A stretch of DNA of 64,000 nt from a virus. Its lineage: Duplodnaviria; Heunggongvirae; Uroviricota; Caudoviricetes. A model generated the notes under the pieces. It did not search any database and was not told the DNA's origin. It was given only the letters and a program-made list of their open reading frames with translations. The DNA is taken from positions 1 through 64,000 of IMG/VR virus record IMGVR_UViG_2795385681_000001; one strand, given 5' to 3'. Position 1 is the first letter of the stretch, and the number at the start of each line of letters is the position of its first letter. Below are positions 1-36,737 of this stretch, piece after piece. The position numbers were made by a program, and so were the translations under genes.

Positions 1-225
1 ATGACATTCAACCTATGCCACGAGTGCGCTACCGCAATCGTCAACGACGACTACTCAAGTTATGACGTTGACGAGGAACGCATACGTCAGTTCTTGGACT
101 CACTGGATAGCTACCTATGTGTGGAGACCGAAGAGTCAGAGCAGGGCAACGGCGGGTACTGGGATTGCGACGCATGCGAACAAGTGCAGATCGGCCCCGG
201 TCACAACGCAACGGAATGTGACTGA
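1..225 (+). CDS. hypothetical Cys-rich small protein; may begin upstream of the window
   Basis: ORF in frame from position 1 with CxxC and CxxC pairs; first gene of a tightly coupled early block. Confidence 0.4.
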   Translation: MTFNLCHECATAIVNDDYSSYDVDEERIRQFLDSLDSYLCVETEESEQGNGGYWDCDACEQVQIGPGHNATECD

Positions 226-226
226 C

Positions 227-349
227 ATGGACTTGTTCATAGCAGCGTTTGTACTTGCCTATCCCCTAGCCCTAATGGGCACATTGGGGGTTGAGAGTTT
301 CTTGCGGGCAATCGATATCCACTGGCATATCAGTGACTACATGGAATAG
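227..349 (+). CDS. hypothetical small hydrophobic protein (41 aa)
   Basis: ATG 2 nt after the upstream stop, in frame with listed ORF 62..349; hydrophobic. Confidence 0.3.
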   Translation: MDLFIAAFVLAYPLALMGTLGVESFLRAIDIHWHISDYME

Positions 350-10045: not shown

Positions 10046-10728
10046 CCGAAATTCCGATCGACATAAACCTGGTTCTGTGGTCGGATGAAGTCCGAATCCG
10101 CTGGTGGCATGTCCGATTCAGTGATACGGATCAGCAGACGCCAACCACGCTCGGTGGCTTGCGATGCCTGGTGAATGTTCCACCAATCCCACGAGTACCA
10201 AACAGCTTCTTGCGCAACCAGCTTCCGTAGAGTGGTGCACCCGTCAATCCGGCGAGTCATCTCCGAGTACATCTGCTCGTCTTCGTCGTGCTCAATTGGC
10301 AAGTGCATCAGGCCGTCGATGAATACAGTTGGGCAGTCGTTACCAACATGCAGAGTGTGGTAGCGCGGGTAATAGCCCTCAAGGGACCGATCATTCTGCA
10401 GCGGCAGGGACGGCATGCCCCAATTCGCCGGGTTCACAGTCTTGTCTGTCACGCTGTAGCGCGGAACCCCATCGGTATGCCACCCGGGAATCGCAGGCCA
10501 CCACCCGGGCATCAGCATCGACACCTTTGTGTCCACCGTGATGTGCCTGTGGTCCCCCACAATTGGGGCCGACTGCAGGAGCTGACGCAGAAATGGGCCA
10601 CCGAATAGCACCGCGTTGGACAGGCTGGCGCGGCGCAGGTTTGGCGTCCCCTCGATCAGGCCAGGGGGATCTGAATACGCTTGGGATCCAATGACCACCG
10701 GGTTGCGGTTGAACCAGTATGTGGTCAC
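10039..10728 (-). CDS. hypothetical protein (229 aa)
   Basis: Long ORF in the minus-strand operon; no recognised motif. Confidence 0.55.
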   Translation of the reverse strand: MTTYWFNRNPVVIGSQAYSDPPGLIEGTPNLRRASLSNAVLFGGPFLRQLLQSAPIVGDHRHITVDTKVSMLMPGWWPAIPGWHTDGVPRYSVTDKTVNPANWGMPSLPLQNDRSLEGYYPRYHTLHVGNDCPTVFIDGLMHLPIEHDEDEQMYSEMTRRIDGCTTLRKLVAQEAVWYSWDWWNIHQASQATERGWRLLIRITESDMPPADSDFIRPQNQVYVDRNFGW

Positions 10729-11078
10729 AGTAGCTTCAACTCCCCTGTGATCGGAGCGAGCTCTTCAACCGTTGCAGGTCCAATAGCGCAACACGTGGTC
10801 GTCAAGATGCCATGGAATTCGGTCTTACCGTTATCCGTAATCAGCGCGTTTGGGAGGTTGGCTTTAATTGCCTTGCCCCAGAGGTCAATCAGTGCGTCTT
10901 CGCTCTCCACCCGCACACAGACCTTCGTGAACGAACCGGCGAGCCACTCGACCACCCGTGGGTCATCGCGGTACTCGAGAACGGCACCCAGAGAGGCGTG
11001 AGCACCTTGTGAAACCATCTTCCCGGCACGCATGCCGAGATCCTTACGCATGATAATCATTTGCTTCAGTTCACTCAT
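10725..11078 (-). CDS. pth2: peptidyl-tRNA hydrolase, PTH2 family
   Basis: MIIMRKDLGMRAGKMVSQGAHA matches the PTH2 aminoacyl-tRNA hydrolase N-terminus. Confidence 0.75.
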   Translation of the reverse strand: MSELKQMIIMRKDLGMRAGKMVSQGAHASLGAVLEYRDDPRVVEWLAGSFTKVCVRVESEDALIDLWGKAIKANLPNALITDNGKTEFHGILTTTCCAIGPATVEELAPITGELKLL

Positions 11079-11888: not shown

Positions 11889-13115
11889 CTAGGTTCCCTT
11901 CACATTCAGTATCTGGCGCAGCTCAGTTACAACCTCAACCAGAGGCTCCGCGTCTTTCATCACCTGATCGATCGGCTTGTAACAGGAAGGGATCTCGTCA
12001 ATCCACTGCTCACCATGCCGGTACTCAATGCCCTGCATCTGCTCAGCCAAGTCCTCAAGGGTGAAGAGCTCCTTGGCCTTTGTTCGCGAGAATCGCCTCC
12101 CGGCACCATGCGGAGCAGAGAACAGGCCATCCTTGTTGCCCCGACCCCGGACCACATAGGAGCGTGTCCCCATCGAACCGGGGATAAGCCCCAGCTTCCC
12201 CTCCGACGCATCGATCGCGCCCTTCCGGGTCAGCCATACCTTCCGCCCGTCGATTTCAGTCGCAACCGTGTAGTTGTGGTGGCAGTTCACGCGATCGAGC
12301 TCGACGCGTTGGGATTGAACGCCAAGCCAATCCGCAAAGACCCGGACGTAGCGGTCCATCATCTCGGCACGGTTGTCGTAGGCGAACTGTTGGGCCCACC
12401 TCAAGTCCTTGATGTAGCGGTCGAACTCGCACGTGCCCTCGGAGAGGTATGCGAGATCCTTGTTCGCTACAGGCTCCGCGATGCCATAGCGCTGGTGCTT
12501 CACCAGTTGGTTCTGCGCAGCCTTGATGTGCTTCTGCGCGATCTTGTTGCCAACACCGCGACTGCCGGAGTGCAGGAACAACCACACCGTGTCGTCAGAG
12601 TCCAGGCACAGCTCAATGAAGTGGTTCCCACCGCCGAGAGACCCCAATTGCTCCATCCACTTCGGGGAGTGCGAGAGGTCAACGTTCAGCTCATTCTGGA
12701 GCTGAATCAGTCCCTCAATACGCTTGCGTGTGAACGGGAATCGCTTCGTGTCAGCGTTGTAGTTGCCTGGGGATAGTGGGATCGCCTCTTCTATCGCGAC
12801 GCGCAGGCGGGACAGATGACTCTTGTACGCACCGTCGAAGCGCTCCAGCAGGTTGCACTCAGTGAACCGAGTCTTCACCGCGATCATGCCGCATCCAATG
12901 TCCACGCCTACCGCAGCAGGTATGACAGCGCCAACGGTTGGGATCACGGTGCCAACAGCAGAACCCTTGCCCGAGTGTGCATCCGGCATCAGTGCCATAT
13001 GGGGGTAGATGAACGGCAACGTCGCCGTCTCTTTGGCCTGCTCGATCGTCGTGTAGTCGATCTCCGAGGCGAACGAAATGATGTTGTCGCCAATCCGCTG
13101 GCTCAATTCCTTCAT
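11889..13115 (-). CDS. rtcB: RNA-splicing ligase RtcB
   Basis: 408 aa with the RtcB signature (PDAHSGKGSAVGTVIPT, GNHFIELC, SGSRGVGN, the HNY motif). Confidence 0.9.
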   Translation of the reverse strand: MKELSQRIGDNIISFASEIDYTTIEQAKETATLPFIYPHMALMPDAHSGKGSAVGTVIPTVGAVIPAAVGVDIGCGMIAVKTRFTECNLLERFDGAYKSHLSRLRVAIEEAIPLSPGNYNADTKRFPFTRKRIEGLIQLQNELNVDLSHSPKWMEQLGSLGGGNHFIELCLDSDDTVWLFLHSGSRGVGNKIAQKHIKAAQNQLVKHQRYGIAEPVANKDLAYLSEGTCEFDRYIKDLRWAQQFAYDNRAEMMDRYVRVFADWLGVQSQRVELDRVNCHHNYTVATEIDGRKVWLTRKGAIDASEGKLGLIPGSMGTRSYVVRGRGNKDGLFSAPHGAGRRFSRTKAKELFTLEDLAEQMQGIEYRHGEQWIDEIPSCYKPIDQVMKDAEPLVEVVTELRQILNVKGT

Positions 13116-13185: not shown

Positions 13186-13193
13186 CTTCCGAG

Positions 13194-13264
13194 TAGTCCA
13201 TGCGGGAATCAAACCCGCACCAACACCTTGAGAGGGTGGTGTGCTCTCACTACACCAATGGACC
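13194..13264 (-). tRNA. tRNA (anticodon not resolved)
   Basis: T-arm gcggg-TTTGATT-cccgc (minus sense) with a complementary acceptor. Confidence 0.45.
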
Positions 13265-13270
13265 TAAGGG

Positions 13271-13609
13271 TTATCGCTCAACCCACGTGCCGGATTCGCG
13301 AACCTCGGTCTTGAGGTTCACCGGCCACATATCACGCTCCACCTGGGCACGCTGTAGGTCTTCACGACCAACCTGACGTTTCACCCATAGCTGGAACTTC
13401 GGCGAGCTCGCCATACGCTTGAACGCGGCCTGCTTGTTCTGCAGCTGGCTACGCTCCTCGCGCGACTCACCCACAGCACCGGACGGTTCATGCGTGATCC
13501 GCACACCCGTCTCGCGCTTGTTCTGGTTTTGACCGCCCTTGCCCCCAGACCGGAATGTGTCAACACGACAATCCGCGAGGGTGACAGACACTACTCGTTC
13601 TCTACTCAC
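13271..13609 (-). CDS. arfB: ArfB-like peptidyl-tRNA hydrolase / ribosome rescue factor (RF-1 GGQ domain)
   Basis: FRSGGKGGQNQNKRETGVRITHEPSG carries the GGQ motif of class I release factors and ArfB (YaeJ); basic C-terminal tail. Confidence 0.7.
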   Translation of the reverse strand: MSRERVVSVTLADCRVDTFRSGGKGGQNQNKRETGVRITHEPSGAVGESREERSQLQNKQAAFKRMASSPKFQLWVKRQVGREDLQRAQVERDMWPVNLKTEVRESGTWVER

Positions 13610-13610
13610 G

Positions 13611-13683
13611 TCAAGTCGACGGGATTTGAACCCGCGTCTTCCGCCTCGACAGGGCGACGCTCTGGACCTCTAAGCTACGACTC
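13611..13683 (-). tRNA. tRNA-Asp (GTC)
   Basis: Cloverleaf parsed by hand: acceptor cgagtcg/cgacttg, anticodon loop ctGTCga, T-loop TTCAAAT. Confidence 0.7.
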
Positions 13684-13794
13684 GATACGCCGTTTTCCGC
13701 ACGCCGGTTTTCGAGACCGACGCGCCAGGGTGGACGGCACCCTGAGCAGACTTTCTGGGAATCAAACCCTGGAGCAGCTCTGCAAAAACTCCCG

Positions 13795-13866
13795 TGGAGA
13801 ATCGGGGAATCGAACCCCGGACGCTGGTGTGCAAAACCAGTGCTTTACCAACTAAGCTAAATCCCC
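13795..13866 (-). tRNA. tRNA-Ala (TGC)
   Basis: Acceptor GGGGATT with the G3:U70 identity pair; D-arm gcttagttggtaaagc; anticodon loop ttTGCac; T-loop TTCGATT. Confidence 0.75.
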
Positions 13867-13892
13867 ATCTAAGCTTCAGGAAGGACATATTT

Positions 13893-14321
13893 ATGAAGCT
13901 CAACCGCATTACTGAACTGGTAGCCAACTCGGCTCACCTGGACGGCCTATCCAACAAGATCCTTAAGCACGCTGACGCGGTCGAGGTCTTAGAATCCGGT
14001 GTCCTTAAGGTTATTTCGCGCTCCGTCCACGATGACGCTACTTGCGAAGACAGCCTTTACCTGGCTCCAGGCGAATGGAAGTCGTTCGCTCAAAGGGGCA
14101 CAACCGTGGTGATCGAGTCCGAGGTCCAAGTCTTTGACTTCGAGATGGGCCTCTCAACCGAAGGCTGCGTCAACTTCGTAGCCGCGTACTTTGAACGAGC
14201 TGAAGGTTACGATCCAGATAACGCTCGCGACCTCGCTCGCGAGGTGGTCTACAACCAGCCGGTTGGTAAGGTCTATGGGTCCAACAAGGTCAAGTTTAGG
14301 TTCGTTTCGAACCCGAACTAG
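13893..14321 (+). CDS. hypothetical protein (142 aa) inside the tRNA array on the opposite strand
   Basis: Strong RBS aggaagga before ATG 13893; clean ORF; listed ORF 13794..14321 trimmed. Confidence 0.5.
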   Translation: MKLNRITELVANSAHLDGLSNKILKHADAVEVLESGVLKVISRSVHDDATCEDSLYLAPGEWKSFAQRGTTVVIESEVQVFDFEMGLSTEGCVNFVAAYFERAEGYDPDNARDLAREVVYNQPVGKVYGSNKVKFRFVSNPN

Positions 14322-14347
14322 TCCTCCACGGATCCAACTACCTACGA

Positions 14348-14420
14348 GCCGCATCGAGGTCTCGAACCCCGTACCTCTTCGTTACTAAGGAAGCGCTCTA
14401 GCCTGATGAGCTAATGCGGC
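14348..14420 (-). tRNA. tRNA-Thr (AGT), tentative anticodon
   Basis: Acceptor GCCGCAT/ATGCGGC perfect; D-arm gctcatcaggctagagc; T-loop TTCGAGA. Confidence 0.6.
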
Positions 14421-14425
14421 AAAGT

Positions 14426-14495
14426 ACCTTGCGAGAGAATTGAACTCCCATCCTCGGGGTGTAAACCCGGTGCCCTTCCGTTGGACGAGCAAGGC
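14426..14495 (-). tRNA. tRNA-Val (TAC), tentative
   Basis: T-arm gagag-TTCAATT-ctctc; acceptor gccttgc/gcaaggt; anticodon loop ttTACac. Confidence 0.5.
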
Positions 14496-14621
14496 ATATG
14501 AGCTTTTGGTTGAGGGTGCCCATGCTGCAGCGAGAGGTCCCTGGCGGATGCTCTATCCGCGCACAAGCTTCCGGCGACAACCGAGGTCTCCACCGTAGGG
14601 TCGCCCATCCCAGGGCGTCGA

Positions 14622-14694
14622 ACGAGTGACCAGATTCGAACTGGCACGATCTGTTTGGAAGACAGAGATGCTAACCGTTAAACATCACACTCGC
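14622..14694 (-). tRNA. tRNA-Gly (TCC)
   Basis: T-loop TTCGAAT; anticodon stem tctgt/acaga with loop ctTCCaa. Confidence 0.6.
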
Positions 14695-14699
14695 ATGGA

Positions 14700-14765
14700 G
14701 CGGCAGAGGTGACTCGAACACCCTTGCAGCGGCTTAGGAGGCCACGCACTTTCCGGAACTACCGC
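14700..14765 (-). tRNA. short tRNA-like gene, possibly Arg (CCT)
   Basis: T-arm gggtg-TTCGAGT-cacct, acceptor gcggtag/ctgccgc, but only about 66 nt with a reduced D-arm. Confidence 0.3.
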
Positions 14766-14770
14766 TTGGT

Positions 14771-14841
14771 AGGTTCGCACAGAATTGAACTGTGATTGCC
14801 GACGTATCAGATCGGTGTCCTTACCGTTGGACGACGAACCA
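14771..14841 (-). tRNA. tRNA-Ile (GAT)
   Basis: T-arm cacag-TTCAATT-ctgtg; D-arm gtccaacggtaaggac; anticodon loop ctGATac. Confidence 0.65.
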
Positions 14842-14843
14842 GT

Positions 14844-14914
14844 GGGTCTGGTAGGACTCGAACCTACGTCTCCGACTTAAGAGGACGGAGCTAAACCATC
14901 TCAGCTACAAACCC
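14844..14914 (-). tRNA. tRNA-Lys (CTT)
   Basis: T-arm gtagg-TTCGAGT-cctac; anticodon loop ctCTTaa. Confidence 0.6.
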
Positions 14915-14924
14915 ATTGTTGGTA

Positions 14925-14993
14925 GGGCGCACGGGATTTGAACCCGCAACTCATAGATTAAAAGTCTAGGGTGATTCCGTTTCACCAACGCCC
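14925..14993 (-). tRNA. tRNA-Lys (TTT), tentative
   Basis: T-arm cggg-TTCAAAT-cccg; acceptor gggcgtt/tgcgccc; anticodon loop ctTTTaa. Confidence 0.5.
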
Positions 14994-14994
14994 A

Positions 14995-15207
14995 TTAACT
15001 TGTGATCGCAGGAAACGCTACCCACACATGCGGGTGAGCCTTCCTATATCCATCGCGCCCACATGAGCGCTCAGAGTGGTATCGCTGACAGTCACTAGCT
15101 CTAACGCCGTACTCTGCTTCAACTAGGGCCCTAGCACCTTCCGGGGTGAGCTCCTTGCCCCAGGCAAGATACGAGGCCCCCGCAGCTGTCAGGCGATACT
15201 TGTTCAC
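14995..15207 (-). CDS. possible small protein (70 aa, GTG start) between tRNAs
   Basis: Listed ORF with protein-like composition (LAWGKELTPEGARALVEAEYGV); weak RBS; could be spurious. Confidence 0.25.
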   Translation of the reverse strand: MNKYRLTAAGASYLAWGKELTPEGARALVEAEYGVRASDCQRYHSERSCGRDGYRKAHPHVWVAFPAITS

Positions 15208-15209
15208 GT

Positions 15210-15283
15210 AGTCGGCGCGAGGATCGAACTCGCAGACACCGAGGTTTGAGCTCGGCGGCTTTGCCAGGTTTGCCTAGCCGACC
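15210..15283 (-). tRNA. tRNA with anticodon CAA (Leu-type) but a class I body
   Basis: T-arm gcgag-TTCGATC-ctcgc; anticodon stem ccgag/ctcgg perfect with loop ctCAAac; short variable arm. Confidence 0.5.
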
Positions 15284-15353
15284 AGGCTCGGTGTTTGATC
15301 ACGCAGCTTTACCGAAGTACTGCGGGCCCTTTCACGGGGGCCAGTCGTCGAGT

Positions 15354-15427
15354 ACTCCGAGAGGGATTCGAACCCACAACCTCCAGGGTCTAAGCCTGTC
15401 GCCTCTGCCAAATTGGGCTACCGGAGC
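15354..15427 (-). tRNA. tRNA with anticodon TAG (Leu-type) but a class I body
   Basis: Acceptor gctccgg/tcggagt; T-loop TTCGAAT; anticodon loop ctTAGac; short variable arm. Confidence 0.5.
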
Positions 15428-15531
15428 ATGGTGCCGATACTTTGTGTAGAGCGCCACCCGCTATCTGGGGTAACACGCGCCCAAGCGCCTCGGCCAACGA
15501 GGGAGTTTCACCTTATCGACGGCGCTTTGGA

Positions 15532-15602
15532 GACGAAGACCGGATTCGAACCGGTGTGGGTCAGGGTTGCAGCCTGCCAGCTAGCCACTCACTCACTTCG
15601 CC
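15532..15602 (-). tRNA. tRNA-Cys (GCA)
   Basis: T-arm accgg-TTCGAAT-ccggt perfect; anticodon loop ctGCAac. Confidence 0.6.
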
Positions 15603-15610
15603 TTGTGGTT

Positions 15611-15698
15611 GGTGTGCGCAGGAATTGAACCTGCCGGGGACCATAACGCGAGAACTCGCGCTGCGGACTCGAACCGCCCTCTCACCGAGAGACACACC
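15611..15698 (-). tRNA. tRNA-like region with two T-arm motifs (class II tRNA or tRNA plus fragment)
   Basis: gcagg-AATTGAA-cctgc and gcgg-ACTCGAA-ccgc on the + strand lie within 88 nt; no single cloverleaf resolved. Confidence 0.3.
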
Positions 15699-15715
15699 AG
15701 GTTCGATGCTATCCC

Positions 15716-15879
15716 CTATTCTGCGGCTGGGGCGACCTTCTTAGCCGGTGCCTTCTTAGGCGCTGGCTTCTCTTCAACCGCGTAGTTGAAGTCCTCGAGA
15801 TTGGCAACTCGGGAGATCAGATCATTGACGGCATCGACTACCGGCTTCGGCGCGATTCCGCTCTTCAGAAATTCAGTCA
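15716..15879 (-). CDS. small Lys/Ala/Pro-rich protein (54 aa, GTG start) inside the tRNA array
   Basis: RBS aaagggtag before the GTG; protein VTEFLKSGIAPKPVVDAVNDLISRVANLEDFNYAVEEKPAPKKAPAKKVAPAAE with a histone-like tail; below the ORF-track cutoff. Confidence 0.3.
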
Positions 15880-15904
15880 CTACTACCCTTTCCAAGGTTG
15901 AACG

Positions 15905-15974
15905 TCCCTATGCACGGTTACGATCCGTGGTCGCCGGGGTCACATCCCGGAGCTCTGCCATTGAGCTACACAAG
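15905..15974 (-). tRNA. tRNA-His (GTG) with an unusual T-loop
   Basis: Canonical D-arm GCTCAATGGCAGAGC; anticodon stem ccggg/cccgg with loop atGTGac; T-arm cacgg-ATCGTAA-ccgtg. Confidence 0.5.
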
Positions 15975-16082
15975 GTATGGAGCAAGTGGCCATGGTGTCC
16001 CACATCTGACGGGCTGCGGTAACCGACGCGTGGCTGTGGCATTCCATGTTTATCCGGGCTCTCCATCACCGGCACTTGTCGA

Positions 16083-16156
16083 CCCGTTGACAGGATTCGA
16101 ACCTGCATGCGTTGCGCCTTCGTAGGGCGGTGGGCGCTCCATTGCCCAACAACGGG
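16083..16156 (-). tRNA. tRNA-Arg (ACG)
   Basis: Acceptor cccgttg/caacggg perfect; T-loop TTCGAAT; anticodon loop ctACGaa. Confidence 0.65.
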
Positions 16157-16217
16157 ATTGGAGCCGCATTGGTGCTAGGCTGCGGCGGGCCTAACCAGGT
16201 GCCCCTGGATTTTGCGT

Positions 16218-16291
16218 GGCGGGGGTGGGATTTGAACCCACGGTCTCTGACTTATGAGGACAGCGAGATGGCCGAACTTCTCTACCCCGAC
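16218..16291 (-). tRNA. tRNA-Met (CAT)
   Basis: T-arm gtggg-TTCAAAT-cccac perfect; anticodon loop ctCATaa. Confidence 0.6.
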
Positions 16292-16412
16292 ATGAGACTC
16301 ATTCCGATAGGACAGTTCATCGCCTACCGTATCCGCGCGAGTCGACGCGACCGTTTACGTGGAGTGCCCGGTTTTTCACCAGTAACCGTGGAAGCTGGTT
16401 TCCCTTACACGC

Positions 16413-16486
16413 CGGATCGCTTGGAGTCGAACCAAGGCCCTCTCGGGTTTCAACCGAGCGCTCTCACCAAACTGAGCTACGAACCG
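16413..16486 (-). tRNA. tRNA-Phe (GAA)
   Basis: D-arm gctcagtttggtgagagc; anticodon stem ctcgg/ccgag perfect with loop ttGAAac; T-arm cttgg-TTCGACT-ccaag. Confidence 0.75.
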
Positions 16487-16781
16487 ATTTTTGTTAGAGG
16501 CTGAGAGTACACCTGCTATCGAGAACCTTTGCGGCATTATTGATTCGCCACTTCTCCACGTCATTCCTGAACGTAGTTCTCACGCCCGGTCGGTTACGCC
16601 AACCACTCGTCATGCCGAAAGCTACTCCGCGACTTTGGTTTCGCGATGGGATGGCCGTCCCATCGTTGCGCTACTTGTCTACGAACCACCGTCGCCTTGC
16701 GAGCTCGTGATGGCCCTGGTTCCCGAAGGCCAGGGATTAGAGGCGCTTTTGCTCCTCGGCAGGGGAAGGACTTTTGCTTTT

Positions 16782-16851
16782 ATTGACGACGGGAATCGAA
16801 CCCGCACATCCTGTTCCATATACAGGTGGCCTGCCGTTGGCCTACGTCATT
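16782..16851 (-). tRNA. tRNA (anticodon ambiguous, loop atATGga)
   Basis: T-arm cggg-TTCGATT-cccg; D-arm ggccaacggcaggcc; anticodon stem cctgt/acagg perfect. Confidence 0.5.
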
Positions 16852-17292
16852 CTCGCAGCGGAGAATGATTTGACTGAAGACGTGCTTCCCCATGAAGTTC
16901 CGAACCCTTTTGGGGCACAGAATGCTTCACGTCTCTCGCGCTTTCGCCTGGCGGGGCTAATAACACTCTCTCTCAACCGCATTGCGAGCCGTCACCCGAC
17001 GCGAGATCGATCATGGAAAACGCCCTTGCTTGCGAGGTTCGGACTCAGTTCCCTCCGCTCCACAGGAGGCTTGTTCAATAGCGCTTTCCACCGCACGACG
17101 GCTTGGTAGTCCCACCGGTTCACGGCCCTGGACTCACGCGTAACTCGCCACCTGGCAGCCATCTCTGACTGCTCAAGGATTGGATTGCATGGATTGCCCT
17201 TGCGGGTGGTGGGTTGTCACCCCACCTTTCACCACCTTGCGGTGACTTATGGGCCATGCCCCGAATGTCTAAACAATATCCCCCACAACAGA

Positions 17293-17305
17293 GTTCGTGT
17301 GGGTG
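17293..17305 (+). promoter_or_regulatory. variant copy of the 14-bp repeat (GTTCGTGTGGGTG) in the intra-array spacer
   Basis: 12/13 match to GTTCATGTGGGTG. Confidence 0.4.
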
Positions 17306-17378
17306 ACCCTGGCGTGCGTTAGCCAACCACCGGGGCCAGACAGATCGTGGGGCCGTAGCCGCAGGATCCGTACTTTGC

Positions 17379-17460
17379 GGAGAGGCAGGTATTCGAAACC
17401 TACTGCGAGCAGCGATCCGGTTAGCAACCGGGCCTAGTCACCTGACTAGTTGCGCTCTCC
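17379..17460 (-). tRNA. tRNA-Ser (GCT), class II
   Basis: 82 nt; anticodon stem ccgg/ccgg with loop ttGCTaa; long variable arm; T-arm aggt-TTCGAAT-acct. Confidence 0.65.
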
Positions 17461-17541
17461 AAAATCCACCCCTTCGGCGTCAACACTGGACTCGACGCAC
17501 CTGTATTCACTCTTAGCCATGGCCAGGCGGGTGGAGAACGA

Positions 17542-17625
17542 GGAAGGTAGAGGAATCGAACCCCCGAGTTTTCAGGCTCGCCCCGGTATTCGACGCCGGT
17601 TGCCGACCATTCAGCGGTGCCTTCC
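17542..17625 (-). tRNA. class II tRNA, probably Ser (CGA)
   Basis: 84 nt; T-arm ggggg-TTCGATT-cctct; acceptor ggaaggc/accttcc; anticodon loop gtCGAat; tentative. Confidence 0.45.
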
Positions 17626-17706
17626 ATATGCCCCATTTTGATAACGCAACTGGAGCTACTGCGGACAGTCAACTCATGGCAGGTACCTACCGGTTGACCC
17701 AAACGC

Positions 17707-17777
17707 TGACGACCCTGGATTCGAACCAAGAACTGCGAAGTTCAGAGCTTCGTGTGTTGCCGTTACACCAATCGTCA
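17707..17777 (-). tRNA. tRNA-Gln (CTG)
   Basis: D-arm gtgtaacggcaacac; anticodon stem cgaag/cttcg perfect with loop ctCTGaa; T-loop TTCGAAT. Confidence 0.7.
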
Positions 17778-17857
17778 AAGCTGAGACTGGCCTTGCGGGC
17801 AGTGGAACGTTTCTGCTTGCCGCAAGCCTTCAGTTCGTTCCACACCAGTCTCATTGT

Positions 17858-17933
17858 CTCGCCGTCAGGAGTCGAACCTGCACACCCAAAGGAACAGATT
17901 TACAGTCTGCGTTGATCGCCTATTCGCGACGAG
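17858..17933 (-). tRNA. tRNA-Tyr (GTA)
   Basis: T-arm gcagg-TTCGACT-cctga; anticodon loop ctGTAaa; extended variable region. Confidence 0.55.
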
Positions 17934-18011
17934 ATTGGAGGCACATCTTTTGCAGTGATGTGCCAATTCGTCTGGCCCACAATCGGATAGCTACTCCACT
18001 GTCGACGGCGC

Positions 18012-18082
18012 TGGCCTACCTGGACTCGAACCAGGAGTCAGGGATTAACAGTCCCACGGTTTGCCGATTAACCGACAGGCCA
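18012..18082 (-). tRNA. tRNA-Asn (GTT)
   Basis: T-arm cctgg-TTCGAGT-ccagg perfect; D-arm ggttaatcggcaaacc; anticodon loop ctGTTaa. Confidence 0.7.
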
Positions 18083-18288
18083 AGACCTCGGATATTTCAC
18101 GTCGATACCGAGGATAGGACGGACACCTTTCGCGGTCTCCCGCTCAGCTGTCAAGCTGGCCCAGATTCTCCCGACCTCACGGGTTAGCTCTGTGGCAGGC
18201 GCTTAGGTCTACTTCCCACCATGGTGACGCTAGGTGGGCGTAGCGGACAGTTCCCTTCTCGTGGAGGTGTACTGACAACCCGTCCCGT

Positions 18289-18358
18289 CAAGCTGGGAGG
18301 AATTGAACCTCCACCACCGGTACCCAAAACCGGCATGATCCCGTTTCACTACAGCCTG
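18289..18358 (-). tRNA. tRNA-Pro (TGG)
   Basis: T-arm ggagg-TTCAATT-cctcc perfect; anticodon stem ccggt/accgg perfect with loop ttTGGgt. Confidence 0.7.
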
Positions 18359-18642
18359 ATTGATGAACGACACGGCCCAGGTACGGCACCTCAGATCGGT
18401 GGCGGTTAGGCCCCTACTGCGGGATTACCCTGTCGTTCATTTGACCATCAGCATCCCGATGGCCGCGCGGAGATGTCTCTCCACATTCCCCGTAAGAACC
18501 GCTCCGTTCCGAGCGCTACTCGTACTTGGTTCTGGTTATGCGAGCCGGGGCCACGCGTCGTTTAACGAGGGTGCTCTGCCACTGAGCTACGGCCAGGGGG
18601 CTCCCCTAGCTGACCGGGATCGAACCGGCAACCTCCCTCTCG

Positions 18643-19007
18643 TGGAGCTGTGCGGAATTGAACCGCAGTCTTACGCTTCTCTTCACTGCCTTCTACGTGC
18701 GTAGTGATTTGGCTGCTTCTATACCGCTGCCCTACACAAAGCGGTTCGTCGGGCTTGCCACCGACGCTGCGTCACTTGCGCTGTTAGCCTCTGCGTAGTG
18801 TTTCTTCGTCACCTTTGAGGGTTCCCCGTATTGGCGACGGTGGATTGGTACACGGAACGGGTAAACCGTTATACCCCACCGGACTATGCCGCTAGGACGT
18901 AGTCGGACTGATGAGCGTTTGCGCTTATCAAGGTTGCACTGTTACGGGCGTTGCTTCCCGGCACGCTTCTCAGTAAGTTGACACGCAATCGAATGCCTGT
19001 CAGCCCC
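18643..19007 (-). ncRNA. ssrA: tmRNA (SsrA), about 365 nt, encoding tag peptide ANAHQSDYVLAA
   Basis: Minus-strand 5' end GGGGCTGACAGGCATTCGA pairs with 3' end GCGGTTCAATTCCGCACAGCTCCA (tRNA-like domain). Internal ORF GCAAACGCTCATCAGTCCGACTACGTCCTAGCGGCATAG gives A-N-A-H-Q-S-D-Y-V-L-A-A-stop, close to the mycobacterial tag ADSHQRDYALAA. Confidence 0.75.
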
Positions 19008-19063
19008 ATTGAAACTACTATCTCTATGGAGTTTTCAAATGTCATGCCACACAGGGGCATTGC

Positions 19064-19133
19064 ACGGGTGGAGAGAATCGAACTCCCACTAACGGGTTTG
19101 GAATCCGTTGTCCTACCTTTGGACCACACCCAT
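19064..19133 (-). tRNA. tRNA-Trp (CCA)
   Basis: T-arm gggag-TTCGATT-ctctc; anticodon loop ttCCAaa; first gene after the upstream motif and terminator. Confidence 0.65.
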
Positions 19134-35147: not shown

Positions 35148-35353
35148 TCGGCCTCATACCATTCAGTGACAGTGCGCTGCATCAGCTTCCGCTCAGGATG
35201 CTGGGATGTGTAGTTTCGCGCCTGCGCCTCTGTAAGTTCGCCAACCTCATCGCGGTGCGCCAGCTCTCCGCACGGATACGCGAAGTTCCACTCCAGGTGG
35301 CACTTTGGCAACGACTTAGACTGGATCTCGAGCTGCTCACTGACGCTGCTCAT
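35144..35353 (-). CDS. hypothetical protein (69 aa)
   Basis: Listed ORF. Confidence 0.45.
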   Translation of the reverse strand: MSSVSEQLEIQSKSLPKCHLEWNFAYPCGELAHRDEVGELTEAQARNYTSQHPERKLMQRTVTEWYEAE

Positions 35354-35880
35354 CCGATACCGTCCACAATCCCCAGCGCCACAGCCTCATCCATCGCCAG
35401 GTACCACTCTTTGTCCCGAATGCGTTCACGGAATTCGGCGTGCGAGATATTGCAGCGGTCATGGGCGTCGATGTATCGCTCCACCCACTTCTCGCAGAAC
35501 TCGAGCTCATTGCGCACCTGGGCCATCGTCTGGTCATGGAACGTAGACAACGGCTCGTGCATGTAGATGTAGCTCATTCGTCCACCAAGGCGCTTATCAC
35601 CAGCCTGGAGGATCAAGGAAGCGGCAGATGCAGCACGACCGCGTACGCGCGTGGTGACGTGGTGTCCTCCACCACCCGCAACAGACATCCGCACGAGCTC
35701 GTCGTAGATGGCGTCCCCGTGCTCCATGGACCCACCGGGTGAGTTGATGATCAGATCGATTGGACGCCCAGGCGTATTGATATCGATGTCACGAAGATGG
35801 CTCAGGGTCTTACGGGCGACCTTGTCATCGATCTCGCCATGGAGACTGAGCTCTGCTGGATCTGATGGTTCTGCAGACAT
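35350..35880 (-). CDS. clpP: ClpP-family serine protease
   Basis: LIINSPGGSMEHGDAIYD..GRAASAASLILQAG..MHEP pattern; start MSAEPSD overlapping the upstream stop. Confidence 0.75.
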   Translation of the reverse strand: MSAEPSDPAELSLHGEIDDKVARKTLSHLRDIDINTPGRPIDLIINSPGGSMEHGDAIYDELVRMSVAGGGGHHVTTRVRGRAASAASLILQAGDKRLGGRMSYIYMHEPLSTFHDQTMAQVRNELEFCEKWVERYIDAHDRCNISHAEFRERIRDKEWYLAMDEAVALGIVDGIG

Positions 35881-36737
35881 CAGGCAACCCTCTTCAGCTC
35901 GGGGACGACACGAAGCTTGCGGGCCCACTGGCCACCACGAACAATGTCTCGGCCACGCGCAAGGGGAACCTCGTAGATCCCCCACTTCCAGCGGCCACGC
36001 GAGTCGGGTGTCTGCGGGCAATGGAACATCAGAGCGGTCTCGGTGTCACACTCATGGTCAGCGAACTCAGCGGTGCCATCGGCGTTCGGCCAGAAGTCGG
36101 CCCACGGAATGTCCTGATGGACAGCGGAATCCTGGTAGAGCTTGCCAAGTACGTAGAGCGCTAGCTGTGCGCAGACACCCATCCGGTACTGGTCGTCCTT
36201 ACCGGTCTTGATGTCGACCATATAGCGGGTGCCATCCCATTCGACAATGCGGTCAGCGGATCCAGCCGCACGCAGCGTGGCGATCCGGCCATCCGGCAGC
36301 TCGATGCGATCATTCGCCTGCAGGAAGACCTCACGCGCCAGGAAGTTCATCCCAGGAAGGGATGCGATGAATTCGTGGTACCCATCCAGGATGGGCTTCA
36401 TATCCTCATCAACCAGTGACCAGTCGAGGTTCCCCTCTTCCAGAACACCCGTGAAGTCGTGGATGGAAGTTCCCCGGGAGGACTTGTTCATCGCCCCGCC
36501 GATGGTCTCGGCCTGTGAGATGACCTCTTTGATCTCGCCCTTGCTCGAATCCCAGGAGCCGCCCTTGGCGATGATCGCCTTGACGCGGTTCAGAAGCTGG
36601 GGATTCTGCGCGAGACCGAACATGGCATTGGCCTGGTGCCAGGCGAACAACCCATCTCCGGGCTTGTCGAGATCCTTAGCCAGCGTCGAGCATCGCGAGT
36701 AGGCGACCCGACGTCCACCGTCAGGGGTGAACAGCAT
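35880..36737 (-). CDS. RecB-family / Cas4-like PD-(D/E)XK exonuclease
   Basis: RIVEWDGTRYMVDIKTGK D-x-K nuclease core; paired with the downstream ERF gene. Confidence 0.6.
   Translation of the reverse strand: MLFTPDGGRRVAYSRCSTLAKDLDKPGDGLFAWHQANAMFGLAQNPQLLNRVKAIIAKGGSWDSSKGEIKEVISQAETIGGAMNKSSRGTSIHDFTGVLEEGNLDWSLVDEDMKPILDGYHEFIASLPGMNFLAREVFLQANDRIELPDGRIATLRAAGSADRIVEWDGTRYMVDIKTGKDDQYRMGVCAQLALYVLGKLYQDSAVHQDIPWADFWPNADGTAEFADHECDTETALMFHCPQTPDSRGRWKWGIYEVPLARGRDIVRGGQWARKLRVVPELKRVA

What the first reader, a model, noticed from the sequence alone, without database searches (positions are those of the whole stretch)
18643..19007. Phage-encoded tmRNA (SsrA) with a mycobacterial-type tag
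The minus strand carries a complete tmRNA-like molecule. Its 5' end GGGGCTGACAGGCATTCGA pairs with a 3' tRNA-like domain GCGGTTCAATTCCGCACAGCTCCA. An internal reading frame GCA AAC GCT CAT CAG TCC GAC TAC GTC CTA GCG GCA TAG encodes ANAHQSDYVLAA*, very close to the Mycobacterium SsrA tag ADSHQRDYALAA. It sits inside the tRNA array next to Pth2, ArfB-like and RtcB genes.
Basis: partly seen in the sequence, partly recalled or inferred. Interest (0 to 1): 0.75.

Follow-up and report, generated by a model that had tools for sequence, protein, structure and literature searches.

The report
Prophage tmRNA gene with host-like tag
This is a genuine, complete ribosome-rescue RNA (tmRNA) gene carried by a Mycobacterium abscessus-type prophage, but the same gene has already been annotated and published in its closest relatives, so it is a new copy of a known feature and not a discovery.

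Summary
ARAGORN calls a tmRNA at 18642-19007(-) with tag ANAHQSDYVLAA*. Rfam RF00023 scores 92.2 bits (threshold 47, E 1.4e-34) over the full model.

All core parts are present: a 7-bp acceptor stem with G3:U70, discriminator A, T-arm, P2, PK1, a GCA resume codon, a stop codon inside helix 5, and PK2. Nine base pairs show compensatory changes across 10 related phage tmRNAs.

The window is colinear with M. abscessus cluster MabI prophages (prophiGD54-2, prophiT49-2, prophi86-1). Their GenBank records already annotate this tmRNA between tRNA-Trp and tRNA-Pro. Dedrick et al. 2021 and Morgado & Vicente 2018 describe the tmRNA together with a release factor and Pth in these tRNA arrays.

The gene is ancestral to cluster M/Mclasvirinae phages. 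It is only 52-57% identical to host ssrA, so it is not a recent capture. The tag matches host ADSHQRDYALAA at 8 of 12 positions and keeps the C-terminal LAA.

No SmpB gene is in the window and no CCA is encoded, so the RNA must use host factors.

The "ArfB-like" neighbour is a stand-alone GGQ domain that fails the ArfB cut-off.

Verdict: real, very probably functional, a new allele of a known kind, low interest.

The parts
18643..19007 (-). tmRNA (ssrA-like) gene, from G1 at 19007 to discriminator A at 18643. No CCA is encoded; the next bases are CGA.
   Evidence: ARAGORN; Rfam RF00023 at 92.2 bits, E 1.4e-34; sequence
19001..19007 (-). Acceptor stem, 5' strand GGGGCUG. G3 at 19005 pairs with U at 18646, giving the G3:U70 alanine identity pair.
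   Evidence: Pairs listed; GU in 10 of 10 related phage tmRNAs
18644..18650 (-). Acceptor stem, 3' strand CAGCUCC.
18651..18667 (-). T-arm: UGCGG, loop UUCAAUU, CCGCA.
   Evidence: Three of 5 pairs show compensatory changes across relatives; 100% of cells paired
18961..18988 (-). Helix P2, 5' strand (P2a, P2b, P2c), linking the tRNA-like domain to the mRNA-like domain.
   Evidence: Rfam alignment. P2a and P2c are conserved or invariant. P2b pairs in the window but is poorly supported in cluster M rows.
18671..18700 (-). Helix P2, 3' strand.
18936..18960 (-). Pseudoknot PK1. Stem a is CGGG/CCCG; stem b is GCA/UGC.
   Evidence: Stem a is invariant. Stem b has a C-G to A-U compensatory change, 4 rows against 6.
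18884..18922 (-). Tag reading frame: GCA resume codon at 18920-18922, ANAHQSDYVLAA, UAG stop at 18884-18886. It is preceded by ...CAACCUUGAUAAGC, the same resume context as host ssrA (...GCAACC..(A/U)UAAGC|GCC).
18882..18904 (-). Helix 5, formed by the 3' part of the tag frame and the stop codon. It has one C.A mismatch in the window. The Ala-to-Val codon change (GCC to GUC) keeps the pair as G.U.
18825..18881 (-). Pseudoknot PK2: a three-part hairpin, with loop CCCGU pairing to ACGGG downstream.
   Evidence: 95% identical to MabI relatives. Three pairs show compensatory changes. The pseudoknot stem is invariant.
18705..18824 (-). Hypervariable centre, at the position of PK3/PK4 in canonical tmRNA.
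   Evidence: Only 35-40% identity to relatives whose flanks are 91-95% identical. The fold is no more stable than shuffles, z -0.37. Partial similarity to the Rey and Estes centres.
19017..19045 (-). Promoter-like site ATGACA-17-GATAGT, ending 10 nt upstream of G1. The surrounding leader is conserved in MabI prophages.
   Evidence: Consensus scan: 1 found against 0.5 expected; alignment A6. Weak evidence only.
13193..19133 (-). tRNA array containing the tmRNA. There are 22 ARAGORN tRNAs, from tRNA-Trp at 19062-19133 down to tRNA-Glu at 13193-13264. The tmRNA is the second gene in transcription order.
13271..13609 (-). Stand-alone GGQ (RF-1 domain) protein of 112 aa, between tRNA-Asp and tRNA-Glu.
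   Evidence: PF00472, E 4.9e-19; GGQ motif; below the ArfB cut-off
11889..13115 (-). RtcB RNA ligase.
   Evidence: PF01139, E 4.7e-110
10725..11078 (-). Pth2 peptidyl-tRNA hydrolase. No homolog in the equivalent region of prophiGD54-2.
   Evidence: PF01981, E 8.5e-30; TIGR00283 at 91 bits, above its cut-off of 82; no tblastn hit in L001

Best explanation
The element is a complete, one-piece tmRNA gene belonging to the tRNA array of a temperate siphovirus of the cluster M / MabI lineage (Vilmaviridae, Mclasvirinae), here a relative of M. abscessus prophages.

Shown here:
- It has every core tmRNA element: acceptor stem with G3:U70 and A73, T-arm, P2, PK1, a host-type resume context, a 12-codon frame ending at a stop inside helix 5, and PK2.
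- These elements are kept by compensatory substitutions across the phage lineage.
- The gene is syntenic (tRNA-Trp then tmRNA) in all relatives examined.
- It is far from host ssrA in sequence.

Inferred mechanism:
- It is processed by host RNase P and 3' nucleases and given CCA by the host CCA-adding enzyme.
- It is charged with alanine by host AlaRS.
- With host SmpB and EF-Tu it enters ribosomes stalled on broken or non-stop mRNAs.
- Translation resumes on GCA and appends (A)ANAHQSDYVLAA.
- The host-like C-terminal LAA hands the product to host Clp proteases, and the ribosome is recycled.

Together with about 22 tRNAs, a GGQ release-factor domain, Pth2 and RtcB, it would keep the translation apparatus running during phage growth.
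For: Identity as a tmRNA:
- ARAGORN call and Rfam full-length match at 92.2 bits, E 1.4e-34.

Structure:
- 87% of cells paired, against 32-50% for slid controls.
- 9 pairs with changes on both sides, reached by 0 of 500 shuffles.
- Acceptor, P2c, PK1a and PK2b are invariant.

Selection pattern:
- The functional core is 91-95% identical to MabI relatives while the centre is 35-40%.
- QSDY(A/V)LAA is kept despite synonymous changes in the last two Ala codons.
- The Val codon change preserves the helix 5 pair as G.U.

Host compatibility:
- The acceptor stem GGGGCUG/CAGCUCC is identical to Mycobacteriales ssrA, and the resume context is the same.
- Many host ssrA genes also lack an encoded CCA.

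Phage origin and lineage:
- The window is colinear with MabI prophages.
- A homologous tmRNA sits in the same position in prophiGD54-2, prophiT49-2 and prophi86-1 and in cluster M phages Rey, GenevaB15, PegLeg, Nanosmite, Reindeer and Estes.
- Identity is 72-76% to MabI, 57-65% to cluster M and 52-57% to host ssrA.

Published descriptions:
- PMC8092301, PMC9934374, PMC5966550.
Against: - There are no expression, aminoacylation or tagging data for this or any related phage tmRNA in the literature I could search.
- No SmpB homolog is in the window. The best hit to a profile built from 72 host SmpB sequences has E 0.77, so function depends on an untested fit to host SmpB.
- CCA is not encoded.
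- Helix 5 has one C.A mismatch.
- PK3/PK4 cannot be demonstrated, and the centre evolves as if unconstrained.
- Sister phages isolated on M. smegmatis carry tags ending VGA or VAA rather than LAA. The degron function is therefore not universal in the lineage.
- ARAGORN fails on four relatives.
Confidence: 0.8

Rival explanations
1. The gene is a working tmRNA, but its main role is counter-defence or hijacking rather than housekeeping rescue. In this view it belongs to a phage module (tRNAs, GGQ protein, Pth2, RtcB, GOLLD) that neutralises host tRNA-, rRNA- or mRNA-cleaving toxins or abortive-infection nucleases. Alternatively it competes with host tmRNA to redirect tagged proteins, for example to the phage ClpP-like protease.
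For: - It is co-located with RtcB, a GGQ domain protein, Pth2 and about 22 tRNAs.
- A ClpP-like protease is encoded at 35350-36021.
- Tags differ systematically between M. abscessus prophages (LAA) and M. smegmatis phages (VGA or VAA).
Against: - No nuclease target or defence system was identified here.
- The co-location spans 5-8 kb and may only reflect a common 'translation' gene neighbourhood.
- Nothing distinguishes this reading from simple capacity boosting.
Confidence: 0.12
2. The gene is a decaying, non-functional relic of an anciently captured ssrA, carried along passively in the tRNA array.
For: - The centre is hypervariable.
- Helix 5 has a C.A mismatch.
- No CCA and no SmpB gene are present.
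- ARAGORN misses several relatives.
Against: - The core elements are invariant or maintained by compensatory changes.
- The reading frame has the same length and the same stop position in all 10 genomes.
- Rfam scores are 83-112 bits in every relative.
- From established knowledge of E. coli tmRNA, PK2-PK4 are dispensable for tagging, so a variable centre is not evidence of decay.
Confidence: 0.06
3. The element is host ssrA sequence at a prophage attachment junction. Some mycobacteriophages integrate into the host tmRNA gene and duplicate its 3' end.
For: MabG and MabM prophages and K1 phages use attB sites inside host tmRNA (PMC8092301; PMC10865867).
Against: - The gene is full length.
- It lies about 18.7 kb inside the prophage, between phage tRNA genes.
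- It is only 52-57% identical to host ssrA.
- MabI prophages use a serine integrase at other attB sites.
- The same gene is present in the virion genomes of cluster M phages isolated on M. smegmatis.
Confidence: 0.01

Closest known systems
tmRNA of Mycobacterium phage prophiGD54-2 (gene 104, MW584202; cluster MabI), and those of prophiT49-2 and prophi86-1
   Same: - Same position, between tRNA-Trp and tRNA-Pro.
- Same length (355-366 nt) and same architecture.
- 5' core and PK2 are 91-95% identical.
- The prophiGD54-2 tag ANAHQSDYALAA differs at one residue.

   Different: - Full-length identity is only 72-76% because the 116-nt centre is unrelated (35-40%).
- The window tag has Val at position 9.
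- The window also carries a Pth2 gene that the equivalent prophiGD54-2 region lacks.

tmRNAs of cluster M mycobacteriophages (PegLeg gp91, Rey gene 105, GenevaB15, Aziz; Mclasvirinae)
   Same: - tRNA-Trp then tmRNA synteny.
- Conserved tRNA-like domain, PK1 and PK2.
- 12-codon frame with the stop at the same position.
- Rfam 93-112 bits.

   Different: - 57-65% identity.
- Tags AAFVAADYAVGA or AAFVDADYAVAA, which lack the LAA end.
- Some of these genes encode CCA.

Chromosomal ssrA of Mycobacteriales (tags ADSNQRDYALAA or ADSHQRDYALAA)
   Same: - Identical acceptor stem and the same resume-codon context.
- The segment GAAGCGUGCCGG, 12-residue tag length and the ..Q.DY.LAA end.
- Frequent absence of an encoded CCA.

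   Different: - 52-57% nucleotide identity, with 4-5 of 12 tag residues different.
- The host gene lies 1-3 kb from smpB, whereas this one lies in a phage tRNA array with no smpB.

Other mycobacteriophage tmRNAs, for example cluster V (Wildcat, Cosmo, EniyanLRS; tag AVDTDVDFAMWEAELASDLVAA)
   Same: Phage-borne one-piece tmRNA. The 3' tRNA-like domain is alignable.
   Different: Only about 66 nt of similarity, with a long and unrelated tag.

Membership tests
tmRNA (Rfam RF00023, one-piece) | Covariance-model score above the curated gathering threshold, over the full model | tested here: met
   92.2 bits against 47, E 1.4e-34, model positions 1-374 of 374
tmRNA (Rfam RF00023, one-piece) | 5' and 3' ends form a 7-bp acceptor stem with the G3:U70 wobble pair and discriminator A (alanine identity) | tested here: met
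   Pairs GC, GC, GU, GC, CG, UA, GC, then A at 18643. Invariant in 10 of 10 relatives.
tmRNA (Rfam RF00023, one-piece) | T-arm with a GGUUCNANUCC-type loop | tested here: met
   UGCGG-UUCAAUU-CCGCA. Three of 5 pairs show compensatory changes.
tmRNA (Rfam RF00023, one-piece) | Pseudoknot PK1 just upstream of the resume codon | tested here: met
   Stem a is invariant. Stem b has one C-G to A-U compensatory pair.
tmRNA (Rfam RF00023, one-piece) | Internal frame that starts at an Ala (GCN) resume codon without a start codon and ends at a stop inside helix 5 | tested here: met
   GCA ... UAG at 18922-18884. Helix 5 has 8 of 9 pairs in the window. Same frame and stop position in all relatives.
tmRNA (Rfam RF00023, one-piece) | Downstream pseudoknots PK2-PK4 | tested here: inconclusive
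   PK2 is well supported. The PK3/PK4 region is hypervariable and its fold is not better than shuffles.
tmRNA (Rfam RF00023, one-piece) | 3'-terminal CCA | tested here: not met
   The gene continues CGA after the discriminator. Many host Mycobacteriales ssrA genes also lack an encoded CCA, so this is not disqualifying. Post-transcriptional addition is inferred.
tmRNA (Rfam RF00023, one-piece) | Alanylation, SmpB binding and trans-translation activity | not testable with these tools
   Biochemical properties. No smpB is in the window (best E 0.77), so host SmpB would be required.
Mclasvirinae (cluster M / MabI) phage tmRNA lineage | Position directly after tRNA-Trp at the head of the phage tRNA array, with a shared 5' core of about 190 nt | tested here: met
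   Synteny in 9 relatives. Core identity is 91-95% to MabI (all three core segments); to cluster M it is 74-77% for the 5' TLD-P2-PK1 segment and 68-94% for PK2, but only 41-51% for the tag frame.
Host chromosomal ssrA ortholog (Mycobacteriales) | Tag AD(S/T)(H/N)QRDYALAA, high sequence identity, chromosomal context near smpB | tested here: not met
   8 of 12 tag identity; 52-57% nucleotide identity; phage context and no smpB.
   25.6 bits against a cut-off of 100. Better matches to the GGQ domains of prfB, prfA and prfH (71, 66 and 55 bits). GGQ motif present.

The most novel reading that the evidence does not exclude
The tmRNA may be one arm of a single phage-borne 'translation rescue and repair' unit. 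The other parts would be tRNA-Trp, the conserved structured spacer, about 22 tRNAs, GOLLD RNA, the GGQ protein, RtcB and Pth2. Its purpose would be to defeat host tRNA-, rRNA- or mRNA-cleaving toxins or abortive-infection nucleases. The host-mimicking LAA degron would be retained specifically in M. abscessus prophages because the RNA is also expressed in lysogens. There it would give the bacterium a second trans-translation system that changes tolerance to ribosome-targeting drugs or to trans-translation inhibitors.
Probability: 0.15. Interest if true: 0.55.

Novelty: new member of a known kind. Interest (0 to 1): 0.18.

Why it matters
On its own it matters little. Phage tmRNAs in mycobacterial tRNA arrays have been catalogued since at least 2014-2021.

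Two points have modest value.

1. The phage tag differs from the host tag at 4-5 positions. Phage-driven and host-driven tagging could therefore be told apart by mass spectrometry. That makes the untested question 'do phage tmRNAs actually work, and when?' directly testable in M. abscessus lysogens.
2. According to my recollection of the literature, trans-translation is essential in M. tuberculosis. tmRNA is also reported to be induced by ribosome-targeting drugs in mycobacteria (a reference cited in PMC6582537). A prophage-borne second tmRNA in a clinically difficult pathogen could therefore matter for drug tolerance and for phage therapy design, if it is expressed.

Tried and rejected
- **Plasmids.** A distant blastn of the locus against plasmids found nothing, so this is not one of the plasmid-borne arrays.
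- **Metagenomes.** Two metagenome scans, one for the exact tag DNA and one for a lineage-specific two-anchor pattern, returned nothing.
- **IMG/VR.** The scan gave only three prophiT49-2-like prophages plus Rey and Reindeer. None is identical to the window.
- **Reference genomes.** Nearly all hits were Mycobacteriales host ssrA; a few were tmRNAs of unrelated bacteria such as Yersinia and Bacteroidia. No M. abscessus record was among the 80 rows whose titles were printed, and the other 40 were not inspected for organism. The host comparison therefore rests on other Mycobacteriales.
- **Literature.** Searches for 'phage-encoded tmRNA' and 'phage tmRNA' with trans-translation found no papers. 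Pope et al. 2014 (PMC3958112) is not held.
- **PK3/PK4.** Folding the central 120 nt gave no signal, z -0.37.
- **SmpB.** tblastn with a remembered E. coli SmpB sequence found nothing in the window. That sequence was validated by an 85% hit in a Yersinia locus and 38-47% identity hits in the actinobacterial loci near ssrA. An HMM built from 72 of those hits also found nothing in the window, best E 0.77.
- **Recent host capture.** Rejected on 52-57% identity.
- **att-site fragment.** Rejected on position and completeness.
- **YrlA.** The YrlA match next to the tmRNA is weak (24.9 bits against 69) and its closing stem borrows tmRNA 3' sequence. I do not claim a Y RNA.

Full report
**1. The observation**

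ARAGORN on the whole window returns 22 tRNA genes on the minus strand between 13193 and 19133. It also returns one tmRNA at 18642-19007(-), with tag peptide ANAHQSDYVLAA* encoded at positions 86-124 of the gene. An independent covariance-model scan against all of Rfam gives RF00023 (tmRNA) at 18640-19007(-). The score is 92.2 bits against a gathering score of 47, E 1.4e-34, covering model positions 1-374 of 374 (repeated).

**2. Anatomy**

I transferred the Rfam alignment to explicit pairs. The window RNA has the following parts:
- a 7-bp acceptor stem, GGGGCUG/CAGCUCC, with G3:U70 and discriminator A;
- a T-arm, UGCGG-UUCAAUU-CCGCA;
- helix P2 in three segments;
- PK1, with stems CGGG/CCCG and GCA/UGC;
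- the resume codon GCA, preceded by ...CAACCUUGAUAAGC;
- a 12-codon frame whose UAG stop lies inside helix 5, which forms 8 of 9 pairs with one C.A mismatch;
- PK2, a three-part hairpin whose loop CCCGU pairs with ACGGG downstream.

I counted these pairs on an alignment of 10 related phage tmRNAs (A1). 87% of cells form standard pairs, against 32-50% when partners are slid by 1-3 columns. Nine pairs have changes on both sides: three in the T-arm, three in PK2, and one each in PK1b, helix 5 and P2. None of 500 shuffles reached that number. The acceptor stem, P2c, PK1a and the PK2 pseudoknot stem are invariant.

The 116 nt between PK2 and the 3' strand of P2 (18705-18824) occupy the place of PK3/PK4. 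This stretch is only 35-40% identical to relatives whose flanking segments are 91-95% identical. Its predicted fold is no more stable than shuffles, z -0.37, so PK3/PK4 remain undemonstrated. From established work on E. coli tmRNA, cited from memory, PK2-PK4 can be replaced without loss of tagging. A free-running centre is therefore compatible with function.

CCA is not encoded; CGA follows the discriminator. Many host ssrA genes recovered here also lack it, ending CCACCG, CCACAA or CCACTG. Post-transcriptional CCA addition is therefore normal for this host group.

**3. What genome this is**

The tmRNA region matches three M. abscessus prophages at 84-88% identity: prophiGD54-2, prophiT49-2 and prophi86-1. 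The rest of the window is colinear with them from their right end, through the serine integrase, RtcB, the tRNA array, replication and recombination genes and lysins, to the tape measure and tail genes. The locus has no match in the plasmid collection. 'Phage-encoded' is therefore correct.

No record in the phage collection, IMG/VR or the metagenome collection is the same genome. The window is a new relative at about 81-86% nucleotide identity.

**4. Already known**

The GenBank records of all three prophages annotate a tmRNA in the same slot, between tRNA-Trp and tRNA-Pro. Their tags are ANAHQSDYALAA and AASAQSDYALAA.
- Dedrick et al. [quoted passage not shown]
- PMC9934374 lists 24 tRNAs plus a tmRNA for prophiT49-2.
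- Morgado & Vicente 2018 (PMC5966550) describe tmRNA, RF-1, Pth and a structured RNA of about 430 nt within mycobacterial tRNA arrays.

**5. Lineage and origin**

A sensitive blastn of the tmRNA alone finds homologs in cluster M mycobacteriophages: Rey, GenevaB15, Aziz, PegLeg, Bongo, Nanosmite, Reindeer, Estes and others. In each of the six cluster M loci I fetched, the gene follows tRNA-Trp. In each it scores 93-112 bits with Rfam.

Full-length identity to the window is 72-76% for MabI, 57-65% for cluster M and 52-57% for 15 host Mycobacteriales ssrA genes. The gene is thus an old, vertically inherited component of this phage lineage. It is of actinobacterial type, sharing the acceptor stem, the GAAGCGUGCCGG segment and the resume context with host ssrA. 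It is not a recent capture, and it is not an att-site remnant of host ssrA.

**6. The tag**

ARAGORN called 119 tmRNAs in the loci held at that point, nearly all of them from the Mycobacteriales-dominated genome scan. The dominant tags are ADSNQRDYALAA (54) and ADSHQRDYALAA (34). The window tag shares 7 and 8 of 12 residues with these, including Q5, D7, Y8 and the terminal LAA.

Within the MabI group the N-terminal half varies (NAH against ASA). QSDY(A/V)LAA is kept, with synonymous changes in the last two Ala codons. The Ala-to-Val change is a C-to-U change that keeps the helix 5 pair as G.U.

Cluster M phages isolated on M. smegmatis instead carry AAFVAADYAVGA or AAFVDADYAVAA. The host-like LAA end is therefore specific to the M. 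abscessus prophage branch. From established E. coli work, cited from memory, the C-terminal LAA is the ClpX determinant. The residue four from the end matters mainly for ClpA.

**7. Dependence on the host**

A profile HMM built from 72 SmpB sequences found next to host ssrA detects nothing among 965 six-frame ORFs of the window. The best hit has E 0.77. No SmpB is annotated anywhere in prophiGD54-2. The RNA must therefore use host SmpB, AlaRS, EF-Tu, RNase P and the CCA-adding enzyme. This is inference.

**8. Neighbourhood**

A strong terminator-like hairpin at 19248-19217 precedes tRNA-Trp. In transcription order the array then runs:
- tRNA-Trp, then the tmRNA;
- a conserved structured spacer;
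- tRNA-Pro and the remaining tRNAs, including a GOLLD RNA;
- a 112-aa GGQ protein between tRNA-Asp and tRNA-Glu;
- RtcB, a YspA/SLOG protein and Pth2.

The GGQ protein has the motif GGQ. It scores 25.6 bits against an ArfB cut-off of 100, and it matches the GGQ domains of RF2, RF1 and PrfH better. It works like a codon-independent peptidyl-tRNA hydrolase domain but is not shown to be ArfB.

A promoter-like site, ATGACA-17-GATAGT, ends 10 nt upstream of G1, and the leader is conserved in MabI prophages. This is only a consensus match.

**9. Verdict**

The most likely mechanism is ordinary trans-translation carried out by a phage-supplied tmRNA using host partners. It would add a host-type Clp degron as part of a phage package that props up translation during lytic growth.

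Identity as a tmRNA is near certain. Function as described is probable, about 0.8, but untested for any phage of this lineage.

Because the same gene is annotated and published in the nearest relatives, novelty is limited to a new allele: Val at tag position 9 and a replaced centre, in a new MabI-like genome. Interest is low.

Noticed in passing
window 16498-16937 (-): A full-length GOLLD RNA (RF02032, 203 bits, E 7.5e-56) lies inside the tRNA array. A tRNA-like gene is embedded in its variable insert; ARAGORN calls it tRNA-His(atg) at 16781-16851, and prophiGD54-2 annotates the homolog as tRNA-OTHER with a 2-base anticodon. GOLLD in mycobacterial tRNA arrays is already reported (PMC5966550, PMC6582537).
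   Followed up: partly
window 18547-18656 (-), directly 3' of the tmRNA: tRNA-like pieces occur in permuted order. A T-arm-like hairpin GCCGGTTCGATCCCGG starts about 10 nt after the tmRNA end, followed by GTAGCTCAGTGGCAGAGCA (D-arm-like). Rfam YrlA (Y RNA-like) matches weakly: 24.9 bits against a threshold of 69, E 0.003 in a 342-nt search, and its closing stem borrows tmRNA 3' sequence. A GGTTCGA hairpin follows the tmRNA in seven of the nine relatives examined, with a degenerate GGGTCAGA version in GenevaB15 and none in Estes (A4). Stronger YrlA-like hits lie after tRNA-Asn in Rey (43.6 bits). No Ro60 gene is annotated in the closest annotated relative.
   Followed up: partly
window 18359-18520 (-), between the tmRNA and tRNA-Pro: This spacer is conserved only in MabI-type prophages; the motif TACGGGGAATGTGGAGAGACATCTC sits at 18470-18494. 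RNAalifold on 4 sequences predicts 40 pairs, 10 of them with compensatory changes. No Rfam family matches. It may be an unnamed structured RNA or a processing element.
   Followed up: partly
window 17857-17934 (-) and 17542-17625 (-): Two tRNA-like genes are missed by ARAGORN and are seen only as weak tRNA-Sec model hits (24-25 bits). The first has anticodon loop CUGUAAA, giving tRNA-Tyr(GUA); a tRNA-Tyr(GUA) is annotated between tRNA-Gln and tRNA-Asn in prophiT49-2, and the window stretch is about 94% identical to a prophiT49-2-like IMG/VR prophage (L132) carrying the same tRNA-Tyr. The second is a long-variable-arm tRNA-like sequence with an apparently 9-nt anticodon loop. It is conserved in, and unannotated in, prophiT49-2 and prophi86-1.
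   Followed up: partly
L007 701-1053, L011 701-1064, L009 663-1033 (Nanosmite, Estes, Reindeer): Rfam finds full-length tmRNAs (96-112 bits) in cluster M phages whose GenBank records have no tmRNA feature and where ARAGORN finds none. The Estes/Aziz announcement (PMC7953290) credits a tmRNA only to Aziz. tmRNA is therefore probably universal, and under-annotated, in cluster M.
   Followed up: partly
window 18705-18824 (-): The tmRNA centre is replaced rather than diverged. It is 35-40% identical to MabI relatives whose flanks are 91-95% identical, yet it shares recognisable blocks with the centres of subcluster M2 phages Rey and Estes. This suggests mosaic exchange inside the tmRNA gene.
   Followed up: partly
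window 13271-13609 (-) and 11889-13115 (-): The stand-alone GGQ protein hits PrfH (54.6 bits) and the RtcB hits the PrfH-partner model 'release_rtcB' (143 bits). Both are below their cut-offs. This hints at a PrfH/RtcB-like ribosome rescue-and-repair pair rather than ArfB.
   Followed up: partly
window 10725-11078 (-): The Pth2 peptidyl-tRNA hydrolase gene has no homolog in the equivalent 19-kb region of prophiGD54-2 (tblastn). It is an accessory addition to the translation module in this genome.
   Followed up: partly
window 13867-14345: A stretch of about 480 bp lies between tRNA-Ala and tRNA-Thr, which are adjacent in prophiGD54-2. It contains a 175-aa ORF on the opposite strand (13794-14321, +) with no Pfam match.
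   Followed up: no
window 35350-36021 (-): A ClpP-like protease (PF00574, E 4.7e-21) lies in the early region next to an ERF recombinase, not among the head genes. It could be relevant to the fate of tmRNA-tagged proteins.
   Followed up: no
window 1-234: The first ~230 bases have no nucleotide match in the MabI prophages. They form a 74-codon ORF starting at base 1, with CxxC-type motifs (CHEC ... CDAC). They could be phage accessory sequence or flanking DNA.
   Followed up: no
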